The notes under the pieces are model-generated. The model was not told the DNA's origin, searched no databases, and was given only the letters and a program-made list of their open reading frames with translations. Both the position numbers and the translations under genes were made by a program. From assembly GCF_024223415.1 (NCBI RefSeq), contig NZ_CP100500.1: a DNA stretch of 64,000 bases, one strand, 5' to 3'. Of the stretch, positions 1 to 2,213 are shown piece after piece (within the stretch, counting starts at the first letter, position 1; each line of letters starts with the position of its first letter). This DNA comes from Escherichia coli (GTDB lineage: Bacteria > Pseudomonadota > Gammaproteobacteria > Enterobacterales > Enterobacteriaceae).

Positions 1-2053
1 AATAAAAACAAAGATCAATGAAGGCGGTACGCTGACAGTCAACGATAATGGCAAAGCGACAGATATCGTCCAGAACAGCGGTGCCGCTCTCCAGACGAGC
101 ACGGCTAACGGTATTGAAATCAGCGGTACTCACCAGTACGGTACTTTTTCCATTTCCGGCAATTTAGCGACCAATATGTTGCTGGAAAATGGCGGTAATT
201 TATTGGTATTAGCAGGTACCGAAGCTCGCGACTCCACGGTTGGCAAGGGTGGGGCAATGCAAAACCTGGGTCAGGACTCCGCCACAAAGGTTAACTCTGG
301 CGGGCAATATACCCTTGGGCGGTCAAAAGATGAGTTTCAGGCTCTGGCCCGGGCAGAAGATCTCCAGGTCGCTGGCGGTACGGCAATCGTCTACGCAGGT
401 ACGCTGGCGGATGCATCGGTCAGTGGCGCGACAGGAAGCCTGTCGTTAATGACGCCACGGGATAATGTTACGCCAGTTAAACTCGAAGGGGCGGTCCGGA
501 TTACCGATAGCGCGACATTGACTCTGGGAAATGGCGTCGATACCACGCTTGCCGACCTGACGGCTGCCAGCCGGGGCAGTGTCTGGCTTAACAGCAATAA
601 TTCCTGTGCAGGTACCAGCAACTGCGAATATAGAGTAAACAGTTTGCTACTCAACGACGGTGATGTTTATTTGTCAGCACAAACAGCAGCGCCTGCCACA
701 ACTAACGGTATCTACAATACGCTGACAACCAATGAACTTTCCGGTAGCGGTAATTTCTACCTGCATACCAACGTTGCAGGCTCCCGGGGCGATCAACTGG
801 TCGTCAACAACAACGCCACTGGTAATTTTAAAATCTTTGTTCAGGATACCGGCGTCAGCCCACAGTCTGACGACGCGATGACGCTGGTGAAAACAGGGGG
901 AGGGGATGCTTCGTTTACGCTGGGCAATACCGGCGGTTTCGTTGATCTTGGGACCTATGAGTATGTCCTGAAAAGTGACGGCAACAGCAACTGGAACCTG
1001 ACCAATGATGTCAAACCCAACCCGGATCCCAACCCAAATCCCAACCCAAATCCGAAGCCGGATCCAAAACCAGACCCAAAACCGGATCCGAAACCAGACC
1101 CGACTCCCGATCCAACGCCGACACCCGTTCCGGAGAAACGCATCACGCCTTCTACCGCAGCCGTACTCAATATGGCAGCAACATTACCGTTGGTATTTGA
1201 TGCTGAGCTAAACAGTATTCGCGAGCGGTTGAACATAATGAAAGCGAGTCCACACAACAATAATGTCTGGGGGGCGACGTATAACACCCGTAATAATGTC
1301 ACCACCGATGCGGGGGCCGGGTTTGAGCAGACGCTGACCGGAATGACAGTGGGGATCGACAGCCGTAATGATATTCCTGAAGGAATTGCCACGCTGGGCG
1401 CTTTTATGGGTTATTCCCATTCACATATCGGTTTTGATCGCGGAGGACATGGCAGTGTGGGCAGTTATTCTCTGGGCGGCTATGCCAGTTGGGAACATGA
1501 AAGTGGTTTCTATCTGGACGGTGTCGTGAAGCTGAACCGTTTTGAAAGTAACGTAGCCGGTAAAATGAGCAGCGGTGGAGCCGCCAATGGCAGTTACCAC
1601 AGCAACGGGCTGGGCGGTCACATTGAAACCGGGATGCGATTTACCGATGGTAACTGGAACCTGACGCCGTATGCATCGTTAACGGGGTTCACCGCTGATA
1701 ACCCCGAATATCATTTATCCAATGGCATGAAATCGAAATCAGTCGATACCCGCAGTATATATCGTGAACTGGGGGCAACGCTGAGTTACAACATGCGTCT
1801 GGGGAACGGTATGGAAGTTGAGCCGTGGCTGAAGGCGGCTGTGCGCAAAGAATTTGTCGATGATAACCGGGTGAAGGTGAATAATGACGGTAATTTCGTC
1901 AATGATTTGTCGGGCAGACGTGGAATATACCAGGCAGGTATTAAAGCCTCATTCAGCAGTACGTTAAGCGGGCATCTCGGGGTGGGGTATAGCAACGGTG
2001 CCGATGTGGAATCCCCGTGGAACGCAGTGGCTGGTGTGAACTGGTCGTTCTGA
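1..2053 (+). CDS. ypjA: Autotransporter adhesin, C-terminal part (5' end lies outside the window): Gly/Asn/Thr-rich passenger, Pro-rich linker, beta-barrel translocator
   Basis: The reading frame is open from position 2 to TGA at 2051-2053 and ends ...NWSF (aromatic terminus typical of autotransporter barrels). Symbol is inferred from position: it ends about 160 bp from the ssrA 3' end, as ypjA does just beyond CP4-57 in K-12. Confidence 0.8.
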   Translation, partial: IKTKINEGGTLTVNDNGKATDIVQNSGAALQTSTANGIEISGTHQYGTFSISGNLATNMLLENGGNLLVLAGTEARDSTVGKGGAMQNLGQDSATKVNSGGQYTLGRSKDEFQALARAEDLQVAGGTAIVYAGTLADASVSGATGSLSLMTPRDNVTPVKLEGAVRITDSATLTLGNGVDTTLADLTAASRGSVWLNSNNSCAGTSNCEYRVNSLLLNDGDVYLSAQTAAPATTNGIYNTLTTNELSGSGNFYLHTNVAGSRGDQLVVNNNATGNFKIFVQDTGVSPQSDDAMTLVKTGGGDASFTLGNTGGFVDLGTYEYVLKSDGNSNWNLTNDVKPNPDPNPNPNPNPKPDPKPDPKPDPKPDPTPDPTPTPVPEKRITPSTAAVLNMAATLPLVFDAELNSIRERLNIMKASPHNNNVWGATYNTRNNVTTDAGAGFEQTLTGMTVGIDSRNDIPEGIATLGAFMGYSHSHIGFDRGGHGSVGSYSLGGYASWEHESGFYLDGVVKLNRFESNVAGKMSSGGAANGSYHSNGLGGHIETGMRFTDGNWNLTPYASLTGFTADNPEYHLSNGMKSKSVDTRSIYRELGATLSYNMRLGNGMEVEPWLKAAVRKEFVDDNRVKVNNDGNFVNDLSGRRGIYQAGIKASFSSTLSGHLGVGYSNGADVESPWNAVAGVNWSF
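1016..1132 (+). repeat. In-frame tandem dipeptide repeat encoding PNPDPNPNPNPNPKPDPKPDPKPDPKPDPTPDPTPTPVP (linker)
   Basis: Direct reading of codons 1016-1132: repeated CCN-AAY/GAY/AAR units with 6-12 nt periodicity. Confidence 0.85.
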
Positions 2054-2063
2054 CCATCAACGA

Positions 2064-2087
2064 AAAAGCCCACATCTGTGGGCTTTC
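2064..2087. terminator. GC-rich hairpin (GCCCACA-TC-TGTGGGC) between the convergent autotransporter gene and ssrA; likely bidirectional terminator
   Basis: Inverted repeat flanked by an A-run on the left and a short T-run on the right; on the minus strand it is followed by TTTTTCG. Confidence 0.5.
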
Positions 2088-2213
2088 ATGTCGCCAGGAG
2101 CCGCGGCTCCTTTGCGTATCCTTTTTTGTCTCCTCACCGTCTGGTCGGCGTCCTGCTGAGACTTCTAACTTCCTGTTTTTGTTGGTGTTGTCCTTACACC
2201 GTCCAATCATGAT

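What the first reader, a model, noticed from the sequence alone, without database searches (positions are those of the whole stretch)
1..2213. Unoccupied CP4-57 attachment site: autotransporter gene abuts ssrA
ssrA is intact to its CCA end at 2214 and is followed within about 160 bp by the 3' end of a convergent autotransporter gene, with no integrase or prophage genes between. This is the arrangement expected if the CP4-57-type prophage that occupies the ssrA 3' end in K-12 is absent. The spacer holds two hairpins (2064-2087 and the perfect palindrome AGGAGCCGCGGCTCCT at 2097-2112).
Basis: partly seen in the sequence, partly recalled or inferred. Interest (0 to 1): 0.35.

Follow-up and report, generated by a model that had tools for sequence, protein, structure and literature searches.

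The report
Empty prophage site beside tmRNA gene
This E. coli strain lacks the CP4-57 prophage that K-12 carries at the end of its tmRNA gene, which is common and already understood, but the 160-base gap left there is a conserved, folded sequence that some tmRNA-targeting phages also carry.

Summary
ssrA (2214-2576, minus strand) is complete to its CCA end. The ypjA/ehaD stop codon ends at 2053. The 160 bp between them contain no gene and no second copy of the ssrA 3' end.

The junction equals the left arm of K-12 attL joined to the right arm of K-12 attR. YpjA is 98% identical to the K-12 protein. This is therefore an unoccupied attB for CP4-57-type elements.

It is not the K-12 excision scar. 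K-12 excision deletes T357 of ssrA, and the window keeps it. Among 5,426 complete E. coli genomes, only one laboratory strain has that scar in its real ssrA.

The strict ypjA-spacer-ssrA-smpB arrangement occurs in 1,179 genomes (22%), so the finding is ordinary and already known.

The unexpected part is the spacer. It is homologous to the attP region of tmRNA-targeting phages (LLS, phiNP and a circular phage of strain CT01). It sits at a nearly fixed 116-117 nt spacing from the ssrA end in about 12 enterobacterial genera. It has five hairpins, with compensatory changes in four, and ends in an intrinsic terminator on the ssrA strand.

I read it as the native 3' trailer and terminator of ssrA, which some phages carry as a replacement copy. 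Any further role is unproven.

The parts
1..2053 (+). 3' part of ypjA/ehaD, an AIDA-type autotransporter adhesin. It covers 683 codons plus the stop; the gene starts upstream of the window.
   Evidence: ORF listing; 98% aa identity to K-12 YpjA; Pfam Autotransporter, Pertactin and AIDA domains; RefSeq annotation of identical loci.
2054..2213 (-). 160-bp spacer. It is a conserved structured module directly 3' of tmRNA, which I read as the ssrA 3' trailer plus terminator. It is homologous to part of the attP region of some ssrA-targeting phages.
   Evidence: 154/160 identity to the K-12 attR flank; homologues in phages LLS, phiNP, Ayreon and the CT01 circular phage; 19 genome loci and at least 120 viral contigs; covariation test; fold z-score -3.7.
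2065..2086 (-). Hairpin H4. On the minus strand it reads AAAGCCCACAGAUGUGGGCUUU followed by UUCGU, which makes an intrinsic terminator for the ssrA direction. It lies 11 nt after the convergent ypjA stop codon.
   Evidence: Sequence; part of the minimum-free-energy fold; compensatory variants GCCCGC/GCGGGC and CCAGCC/GGCTGG in homologues. The consensus terminator scan missed it, probably because the A-U pairs consume the T run.
2096..2111 (.). Perfect palindrome AGGAGCCGCGGCTCCT (H3). As RNA it forms a 5-bp stem with a CGCG loop. On the plus strand it is followed by a T-rich tract.
   Evidence: It is intact in every phage homologue found by BLAST. Strain H22 has GGAGTCGCGACTCC, a compensatory C-G to U-A change.
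2128..2162 (-). Two-tier central hairpin H2. The outer stem pairs 2128-2132 with 2158-2162 and the inner stem pairs 2135-2139 with 2146-2150. The loop is ACCAGA on the minus strand.
   Evidence: Alignment A3 columns 55-89. The inner stem has 3 of 5 pairs with changes on both sides. Outer pair 58-86 occurs as UA, UG, CG and AU.
2184..2200 (-). Hairpin H1, GGUGU-AAGGACA-ACACC on the minus strand, with a GGA motif in its loop.
   Evidence: Alignment A3 columns 17-33. Pair 21-29 occurs as CG, AU and UA; pair 17-33 occurs as AU and GC.
2203..2216 (.). Palindrome CCAATCATGATTGG (H0), which overlaps the CCA end of ssrA. Only the outer CC/GG pairs are conserved across the family.
   Evidence: helix 1: two invariant pairs, no covariation.
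2214..2576 (-). ssrA (tmRNA), intact, with T357 present and one substitution (U320C) relative to K-12.
2214..2242 (-). Attachment-site core region. The last 15 nt (2214-2228) correspond to the overlap of K-12 CP4-57 with ssrA. The last 29 nt (2214-2242) are identical to the ssrA fragment in phage LLS attP.
   Evidence: K-12 annotation, where CP4-57 starts 15 nt before the ssrA end and psaA is at attR; junction alignment; LLS attP annotation and alignment; PMC12315714.
2591..2620 (-). Sigma-70-like promoter of ssrA (TGGTCA, 18-nt spacer, TATACT, with an upstream TG). It is the only promoter-like site found in 1900-2800, so the trailer has no promoter of its own by this scan.
2791..3273 (-). smpB, which anchors the conserved chromosomal side of the site.
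   Evidence: The window is collinear with K-12 from here to window position 58122.

Best explanation
The region is the wild-type, unoccupied integration site (attB) at the 3' end of the tmRNA gene in an E. coli strain that lacks CP4-57 and every other ssrA-linked island. Nothing has been inserted, so ssrA runs into its own 160-nt flank and then meets the end of the convergent ypjA gene.

Shown: the junction is collinear with the two outer arms of the K-12 prophage junctions, ssrA is intact, and there is no duplicated core.

Inferred: the 160-nt flank is the native 3' trailer of the ssrA transcript. RNA polymerase starting at the ssrA promoter reads through the mature CCA end, crosses a folded trailer (H0 to H3) and stops at the H4 hairpin with its U tract. 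Nucleases then cut tmRNA free. That terminator, together with the palindrome and its T tract on the other strand, insulates ssrA from the convergent ypjA gene.

Some temperate phages that integrate in ssrA (LLS, phiNP-like and others) carry a copy of the last 29-39 nt of ssrA plus this whole trailer and a terminator beside their attP core. After they integrate, the gene is rebuilt with a native-like 3' flank. Other elements, such as CP4-57 and P2-like phages, supply an unrelated terminator instead.
For: Junction: the window equals K-12 attL up to CCACCA followed by the K-12 attR flank, 154/160 identical with no indel.

ssrA is full length. No integrase gene, prophage gene or second core lies between ssrA and ypjA. 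ypjA is orthologous and the window is syntenic with K-12 for 56 kb.

The same arrangement is annotated in 1,179 complete genomes, for example NCTC10444 and CRE1493.

Trailer reading:
- The terminator polarity favours the ssrA strand.
- The simple scan finds no separate promoter.
- The spacing from the palindrome to the CCA end is 116-117 nt in every locus that keeps the ssrA end.
- 88% of cells are paired, against 34-42% for slid controls. Nine pairs and 61 cells change on both sides, and 0 of 500 shuffles reach the observed covariation score.
- The element stays on the host side of attR whether the next gene is ypjA (K-12) or glaH (strain H22).
- Phage genomes carry it next to a partial ssrA end.
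- CP4-57 and the H22 P2-like prophage each bring a different hairpin-plus-T-run instead.
Against: No expression data were available, so transcription of the trailer and termination at H4 are inferred. The strand of the structure is not settled by pair counts: in type A copies there are 23 G-U cells against 23 A-C cells. RNAalifold favours the ssrA strand only slightly, at -26.8 against -22.6 kcal/mol.

Outside E. coli, the copies directly after an intact ssrA are followed by phage or mobile genes. A chromosomal origin of the element is therefore not proven, and it could have come from a phage.

K-12 works with an unrelated trailer, so the element is not essential for tmRNA function.
Confidence: 0.9

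Rival explanations
1. The site is the scar left by excision of a K-12-type CP4-57, not a never-occupied site.
For: The arms match the K-12 attL and attR outer arms exactly in register. CP4-57 is known to excise at low frequency (PMC3105296).
Against: K-12 excision deletes T357 of ssrA (PMC10107115), and the window has T357. A query carrying the deleted-T junction matches exactly in only 13 records. Just one of these is the real ssrA, in the laboratory strain DTU-1. The other 12 are unannotated second copies. Natural empty sites are wild type. A scarless excision of an element with perfect repeats cannot be told apart from never-occupied.
Confidence: 0.04
2. The spacer is a fossil. On this reading it is the surviving attP-derived arm of an ancient LLS-like prophage whose body was deleted, perhaps along with ypjA as cargo and pinH as an invertase remnant. 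The empty site would then be a healed attL rather than virgin chromosome. The phased GGAC(A) repeats would be integrase arm-type sites.
For: In other genera the element directly after an intact ssrA is followed by phage genes such as tail fibre, baseplate J, HicB and umuD-like genes.

In LLS the element lies beside the attP core.

The seven GGA motifs lie 10, 21, 41, 61, 81, 93 and 104 nt after the CCA end. They are phased at 10.3 nt with R = 0.90 and P about 0.002, which is the period of the DNA helix.

K-12 pinH is 53% identical over 53 aa to the LLS Fin invertase and lies in the same order and orientation relative to the element.

UTI89 has a spacer-type element followed by GIY-YIG and DinI-like genes.
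Against: In strain H22 the host-side element at attR abuts glaH with no ypjA or pinH, so the element goes with ssrA and not with ypjA.

Stem covariation is not expected of protein-binding repeats.

The element occurs next to several unrelated integrases. Clustering found a P2-like 338-aa family, an LLS-like 390-aa family and others, and individual loci carry dusA-type and P4-like integrases. In the one P2-like case examined (H22), the prophage end next to ssrA has no element, so there the element is not part of that phage's attP.

Invertase remnants are common in E. coli.
Confidence: 0.2
3. After release from the tmRNA precursor, the trailer acts as a regulatory RNA of its own. It would be a 3' external-spacer RNA whose GGA motifs bind and titrate CsrA, or whose A-rich stretches and U tail bind Hfq.
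For: There are 7 GGA in 154 nt on the ssrA strand and 1 on the other. That is 4.5 per 100 nt, against 6.0 in csrB, 5.7 in csrC and about 1.3 in the window background; only 0.5% of equal-length windows reach 7.

Across 40 copies the mean is 6.5 against 1.3, with GGA conserved at seven alignment columns. One lies in the H1 loop, one in the H2 internal loop and two in single-stranded linkers.

There is a weak full-length match to Rfam PrrB_RsmZ at 15.7 bits, E = 0.098.

As precedent, sRNAs encoded in rRNA-operon trailers interact with Hfq and CsrA in vitro (PMC8144298).
Against: The GGA count is not significant once the purine-rich composition is kept (mononucleotide shuffles, P = 0.10). The Rfam score is far below the gathering score of 44. 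No expression or binding data exist. The 10.3-nt phasing looks more like a DNA feature. K-12, which separates the element from ssrA, shows no known Csr defect (own knowledge).
Confidence: 0.12

Closest known systems
E. coli K-12 CP4-57 attL/attR at ssrA, with psaA the displaced ssrA fragment (Kirby et al. 1994 cited from memory; PMC3105296; PMC10107115)
   Same: Same chromosomal site, same core at the last 15 nt or so of ssrA, same outer arms, and the same neighbours smpB and ypjA.
   Different: No prophage is present. ssrA keeps T357, whereas the K-12 excision product loses it. In K-12 the ssrA transcript ends at a CP4-57-borne terminator, while here it would use the chromosomal trailer.
Phage LLS attP (PQ299149; PMC12315714)
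   Same: LLS carries the last 29 or more nt of ssrA. Next to that it carries a sequence 89% identical to the window's spacer, including the palindrome, the central hairpin and a terminator hairpin.
   Different: That copy sits in a phage genome, next to gp31-int-xis. The H1 and H4 stems carry compensatory substitutions. The published description mentions only the 29-bp ssrA identity, not the roughly 150-nt extension.
General rule that islands integrating in tRNA or tmRNA genes carry the 3' gene fragment that restores the target (Islander, PMC4383910; Williams 2003 'Traffic at the tmRNA gene', cited from memory)
   Same: The phage-borne copies regenerate the ssrA 3' end. Displaced fragments mark attR.
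   Different: Here the homology between phage and chromosome runs about 150 nt beyond the end of the gene and is structurally constrained, which the rule does not require.
Trailer-encoded RNAs of stable-RNA operons: the rrA, rrB and rrF sRNAs between the dual terminators of rrn operons (PMC8144298), and the 3'ETS-leuZ sponge (own knowledge)
   Same: A structured RNA segment lies 3' of a highly expressed stable RNA, ends at a terminator, and has no promoter of its own.
   Different: No expression, processing or binding evidence exists for the ssrA trailer. There is no sequence similarity to those RNAs.
CsrB, CsrC and RsmZ, the CsrA-sequestering RNAs
   Same: Several GGA motifs, some in hairpin loops, followed by a terminator hairpin.
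   Different: The element fails the Rfam thresholds. GGA enrichment is not significant against composition-matched shuffles. It has no promoter of its own. It is not a member of this family.

Membership tests
Unoccupied attB of CP4-57-type (P4-like integrase) elements at ssrA | Intact target gene whose 3' end carries the core sequence | tested here: met
   Full-length tmRNA; the last 20 nt are identical to K-12 ssrA.
Unoccupied attB of CP4-57-type (P4-like integrase) elements at ssrA | The sequence beyond the core is collinear with the chromosomal flank of attR in a lysogen | tested here: met
   154/160 identity with the K-12 flank between psaA and ypjA, with no indel.
Unoccupied attB of CP4-57-type (P4-like integrase) elements at ssrA | No integrase or prophage genes, and no duplicated core, between the flanking chromosomal genes | tested here: met
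   ORF list; core search with up to 3 mismatches.
Unoccupied attB of CP4-57-type (P4-like integrase) elements at ssrA | The flanking genes are the orthologues of those flanking the prophage in K-12 | tested here: met
   YpjA 98% identical over 683 aa; smpB-to-yfhL synteny.
Unoccupied attB of CP4-57-type (P4-like integrase) elements at ssrA | The site is competent for IntA-mediated integration | not testable with these tools
   This needs an integration assay with IntA and attP.
K-12-type CP4-57 excision scar | Deletion of T357 in the acceptor stem of ssrA | tested here: not met
   The window reads GCTCCACCA with T357 present. The scar is defined in PMC10107115. Only one genome, a laboratory strain, has it in its ssrA.
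Rho-independent (intrinsic) terminator | G+C-rich hairpin followed directly by a U tract on the transcribed strand | tested here: met
   On the minus strand, GCCCAC-AGAU-GUGGGC followed by UUUUUCGU. The stem is kept by compensatory changes in homologues. Termination itself was not tested.
Conserved structured RNA element | Base pairs maintained by compensatory substitutions beyond what relatedness gives | tested here: met
   88% of cells paired against 34-42% for slid partners. Nine pairs and 61 cells change on both sides. 0 of 500 shuffles reach the covariation score. A further compensatory change lies in the palindrome of strain H22. The strand is not resolved.
Conserved structured RNA element | The element is transcribed | not testable with these tools
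   No transcriptome data are available here. The inference rests on its position 3' of the ssrA promoter and the polarity of the terminator.
CsrB/RsmZ-type CsrA-sequestering RNA | Match to a curated family model at its gathering score | tested here: not met
   The best match is PrrB_RsmZ at 15.7 bits against a gathering score of 44. There is no CsrB or CsrC match.
CsrB/RsmZ-type CsrA-sequestering RNA | More GGA motifs than composition explains, placed in loops or single-stranded regions | tested here: inconclusive
   7 GGA against a window mean of 1.95, but P = 0.10 against mononucleotide shuffles. Seven conserved positions, four of them in unpaired contexts.
Integrase arm-type site array of an attP arm | Repeated short motif in direct orientation beside the core in a phage attP | tested here: inconclusive
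   GGAC(A) occurs four times in direct orientation. All seven GGA are phased at 10.3 nt, P about 0.002, and the element lies beside the LLS attP core. However, the same element adjoins unrelated integrases and is absent from the phage end next to ssrA in the H22 P2-like prophage. Binding was not tested.

The most novel reading that the evidence does not exclude
The 160 nt after tmRNA are not filler. They would be a mobile, structurally constrained 'ssrA trailer module' of hairpins H0-H3 plus a terminator. The module would be exchanged between enterobacterial chromosomes and the attP regions of several tmRNA-targeting phage lineages. It would be made as a 3' external-spacer RNA from the very strong ssrA promoter and would have a function of its own, such as helping tmRNA 3' maturation, insulating ssrA, or binding CsrA or Hfq.

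If so, occupation of the site by elements such as CP4-57 that bring an unrelated trailer would silently remove an abundant RNA from the cell.
Probability: 0.2. Interest if true: 0.6.

Novelty: already known. Interest (0 to 1): 0.25.

Why it matters
As reported, the finding is a routine strain polymorphism. ssrA is a well-known integration hot spot and many E. coli strains lack CP4-57. Its practical value is as a clean reference attB. It shows the wild-type sequence that CP4-57-type, P2-type and LLS-type integrases see. It also shows that natural empty sites keep U357, unlike the K-12 excision product that inactivates tmRNA.

The by-product could matter more. Homology between chromosome and phage extends about 150 nt past the end of the gene and is held together by compensatory base changes. 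This means that something beyond the tmRNA 3' end is under selection.

If that something is an RNA made from the ssrA promoter, then E. coli K-12 is missing it at its natural place. That would give a testable link between prophage occupancy and RNA-level regulation.

Tried and rejected
1. Partial duplicate of the ssrA end in the spacer: none found with up to 3 mismatches.
2. K-12 excision scar: rejected, because T357 is present.
3. Coding potential of the spacer: the 85-aa minus-strand ORF from the ATG at 2210 is interrupted after five codons in phage LLS and is not conserved.
4. Known RNA family: Rfam gives only tmRNA at gathering thresholds. A permissive scan gives only weak terminator-driven hits and PrrB_RsmZ at 15.7 bits.
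5. Strand assignment by G-U against A-C counts: a tie, 23 to 23 in type A copies.
6. GGA enrichment as proof of CsrA binding: not significant against composition-matched shuffles, P = 0.10. Local similarity to csrB and csrC is trivial.
7. P2-type arm-site idea: the large P2-like integrase cluster next to the element proved, in strain H22, to be an attR context. There the element is the host copy, and the phage end next to ssrA is unrelated.
8. LLS-type prophages in complete E. coli genomes, sought to see both copies in one lysogen: no megablast match.
9. Literature search for the element's sequence strings and for a described RNA downstream of ssrA in enterobacteria: nothing found. Wang et al. 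2009 (PMC2754048) is not held.
10. The count of 2,527 genomes with ssrA directly followed by a spacer-type element cannot be read as empty sites. UTI89 shows that some are island ends. The strict count is 1,179.
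Full report
**What is in the sequence**

ARAGORN and Rfam place a complete tmRNA gene at 2214-2576 on the minus strand. The tag peptide is ANDENYALAA, and the Rfam match covers model positions 1-374 of 374 at 292.8 bits. The plus-strand ORF that runs in from the left edge of the window stops at 2051-2053.

The translation of that ORF is 670/683 identical to the C-terminus of K-12 YpjA. It carries AIDA, Pertactin and Autotransporter domains.

The two genes converge on a 160-bp spacer, 2054-2213. The spacer contains the hairpin AAAGCCCACA-TCTG-TGGGCTTT at 2065-2086.

**Comparison with K-12**

I fetched K-12 MG1655 from smpB to ypjA and aligned both prophage junctions with the window.

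- The window follows K-12 attL through the end of ssrA (...ACTCCCGCCAGCTCCACCA).
- It then continues, without any indel, with the sequence that follows the displaced fragment psaA at K-12 attR (ATCATGATTGGACGG...).
- From there to the ypjA stop codon, 154 of 160 bases agree.
- ssrA differs from K-12 at one base, U320C.
- The 15-mer at the ssrA end has no second copy in the spacer, even with three mismatches.
- Beyond ssrA, the window is collinear with K-12 for 56 kb.

This is an unoccupied attB for CP4-57-type elements.

**Not the K-12 excision product**

Published work reports that CP4-57 excision leaves ssrA with a one-base change (PMC3105296). [quoted passage not shown] K-12 attR does carry the shortened GCCAGC-CCACCA. 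The window has T357.

I searched the 5,426 complete E. coli genomes with an 84-nt junction carrying the deletion, and 13 records match it exactly. Only one match is the annotated ssrA itself, in strain DTU-1, whose source is given as 'in vitro laboratory'. The other twelve are unannotated second copies.

Natural empty sites are therefore wild type. The window is a pristine site, or the product of a scarless excision, which sequence alone cannot distinguish.

**How common it is**

- A 3.3-kb query spanning ypjA, spacer, ssrA and smpB is covered in one piece in 1,179 of 5,426 genomes, or 22%. NCTC10444 and CRE1493 are examples with matching annotation.
- A junction-only query is contiguous in 2,527 genomes. 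This overcounts. In UTI89 the spacer-type element after ssrA is followed by GIY-YIG, DinI-like and DUF262 genes rather than ypjA.
- The spacer alone is found in 4,140 genomes at 4,591 places.

The arrangement is ordinary.

**The spacer is not anonymous**

A plasmid hit led to a 43.7-kb circular phage in strain CT01. This phage carries an 85%-identical copy of the whole spacer, joined to a degenerate ssrA end.

A search of phage genomes found the same thing in several records:

- Phage LLS has an 89%-identical copy next to its annotated attP core and 'tmRNA pseudogene'.
- Citrobacter phage phiNP has a copy joined to an ssrA end.
- Phage Ayreon has part of it.

The LLS paper mentions only a 29-bp identity with ssrA (PMC12315714).

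An exact-pattern scan with the palindrome and its flank found 19 loci in one-genome-per-species bacterial collections, from about 12 genera of Enterobacterales.

In ten of the 19 genome loci the element directly follows an intact tmRNA. Wherever the ssrA end is recognisable, the palindrome starts 116-117 nt from it.

**Structure of the element**

I aligned forty diverse copies on the ssrA strand. They support these helices:

- H1, with an AGGAC loop.
- H2, a two-tier central hairpin with an ACCAGA loop.
- H3, the palindrome.
- H4, the terminator.
- H0, at the CCA end, which is weak. Only its outer CC/GG pairs are conserved.

In the covariation test, 88% of cells are paired, against 34-42% when partners are slid. 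Nine pairs and 61 cells change on both sides. None of 500 shuffles reaches the observed covariation score.

Variation within the E. coli-like subtype alone gives several independent compensations. One example is pair 21-29, which occurs as CG, AU and UA. Strain H22, which the pattern search did not select, shows a compensatory change inside the palindrome, GGAGTCGCGACTCC.

A second architecture occurs in Enterobacter- and Kosakonia-like copies. It flips the inner stem and adds a long-range GUGGC/GCCAC pairing.

The strand is not settled by pair counts, with 23 G-U against 23 A-C cells. RNAalifold favours the ssrA strand only slightly.

Two observations point to the ssrA strand. The U tract after H4 lies on that strand. 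The only promoter-like site nearby is the ssrA promoter.

**Motifs**

The ssrA strand carries 7 GGA in 154 nt and the other strand carries 1. The density is close to that of csrB and csrC, and only 0.5% of equal-length windows in the 64 kb reach this count. Across the 40 copies, GGA is conserved at seven alignment columns.

Two checks limit what this means. First, against mononucleotide shuffles of this purine-rich sequence the count is not significant (P = 0.10). Second, Rfam gives only a sub-threshold PrrB_RsmZ match. A CsrA-decoy role is therefore a lead and not a finding.

The seven GGA positions are also phased at 10.3 nt, with R = 0.90 and P about 0.002. That is the period of the DNA helix and hints at protein binding on one face of the DNA. 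I cannot explain it with confidence.

**Host or phage origin**

In other genera, the copies directly after an intact ssrA are followed by phage or mobile genes. These include tail fibre with an S74 chaperone, baseplate J, HicB, a umuD-like peptidase, an IS3-type transposase and an integrase fragment. Those copies are island-borne ends at attL.

Three E. coli observations bear on the origin:

- At K-12 attR the element is on the chromosomal side.
- In strain H22 a P2-like prophage occupies ssrA. Its end next to ssrA is an unrelated sequence with its own terminator. The displaced ssrA fragment plus the element sits at the far end, directly beside glaH, with no ypjA.
- K-12 pinH, just beyond ypjA, resembles the LLS invertase Fin and lies in the same relative orientation. 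This would fit an old LLS-like remnant.

The element therefore goes with the ssrA flank rather than with ypjA. It is not part of every ssrA-targeting element's attP.

I favour a native ssrA trailer that some phages have copied. Recombination between the two copies would then produce the mosaics seen. I give the fossil-arm alternative a probability of about 0.2.

**How it most likely works**

- Shown: the site is empty and intact.
- Inferred: transcription from the ssrA promoter (2591-2620) runs through the mature end, across the folded trailer, and stops at H4. Processing then releases tmRNA. H4, together with the palindrome and its T tract on the other strand, keeps the convergent ssrA and ypjA transcripts apart.
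- Inferred: integrases recognise the last 15-43 nt of ssrA. CP4-57-type elements use about the last 15 nt, LLS carries the last 29, and the H22 P2-like phage displaces a fragment that reaches about 43 nt into ssrA.
- Shown by sequence: LLS-type and phiNP-type phages bring a replacement ssrA end plus trailer, whereas CP4-57 and the H22 P2-like prophage bring an unrelated terminator.

**Verdict**

The reported finding is correct, ordinary and already known. The spacer's conservation, covariation and presence in phage attP regions appear not to have been described, and they deserve an expression test. Their function is open.

Interest is 0.25 overall. The most novel reading not excluded, a functional mobile trailer RNA, has a probability of about 0.2.

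Noticed in passing
window 58123-64000: Collinearity with K-12 ends at K-12 position 2,699,673, about 10 nt inside yfhL. The rest of the window is the start of a prophage with a tyrosine integrase, an SNF2-related protein, Rha, Ant and Arc. Only 9 of 5,426 complete E. coli genomes share at least 80% of it.
   Followed up: partly
window 2257 (ssrA position 320): This is the single difference from K-12 tmRNA, U320C. The copies from other genera in the alignment have U here, so C is the minority state. Its effect on helix 2 pairing was not worked out.
   Followed up: no
window about 1018-1130: The proline-rich (PNP/KPD) linker between the YpjA passenger and barrel domains is 2 aa longer than in K-12. 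Length differences of 6-12 bp among otherwise near-identical genomes may map here.
   Followed up: no
L003 6001-6185 (strain CT01 circular 43.7-kb phage, NZ_CP081794.1): This phage has a dusA-type integrase and carries a dusA 5' fragment. It still keeps the spacer element joined to a degenerate ssrA end, between a type II restriction gene and dinI. That suggests either a swapped integration module or an element kept for another reason.
   Followed up: partly
L153 9001-9189 and L154 11127-11299 (E. coli H22): A P2-like prophage occupies ssrA. The displaced ssrA fragment reaches about 43 nt into the gene but lacks 5 nt at its CCA end, and it lies with the host element beside glaH, with no ypjA. 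The phage end next to ssrA is unrelated to the element and has its own hairpin plus T-run terminator. The host element's palindrome carries a compensatory change, GGAGTCGCGACTCC.
   Followed up: yes
L016, L017, L020, L025 (Atlantibacter, Mangrovibacter, Citrobacter) and K-12 attR (L001 23470-23486): The shortened core seen at K-12 attR recurs next to the element in other genera. ACTCCGCCAGCCCACCA occurs in L016, L020 and L025, and L017 has the still shorter GACTCCGCCAGCCA. The imperfect copy therefore looks like a feature of the CP4-57-family attachment sequence rather than random decay of psaA.
   Followed up: no
L151 5166-5405 (K-12 pinH) against L004 275-823 (LLS Fin): The K-12 invertase pseudogene pinH, upstream of ypjA, is 53% identical over 53 aa to the LLS invertase Fin. 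It lies in the same order and orientation relative to the spacer element as Fin does in LLS.
   Followed up: partly
window 2110-2204, minus strand: The seven GGA motifs of the trailer are spaced 11, 20, 20, 20, 12 and 11 nt apart. They are phased at 10.3 nt with R = 0.90 and P about 0.002. This is unexplained.
   Followed up: partly
window 11735-11750 and 43535-43559: K-12 has about 127 and about 150 extra bases at these two intergenic points (ffh-rpsP and srmB-yfiE) that the window lacks. They are probably repetitive extragenic elements, but this was not examined.
   Followed up: no
window 26.9-32.2 kb: This is the rrnG operon, with tRNA-Glu at 28528-28603, as in K-12. It is the second RNA-gene cluster in the window.
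   Followed up: no
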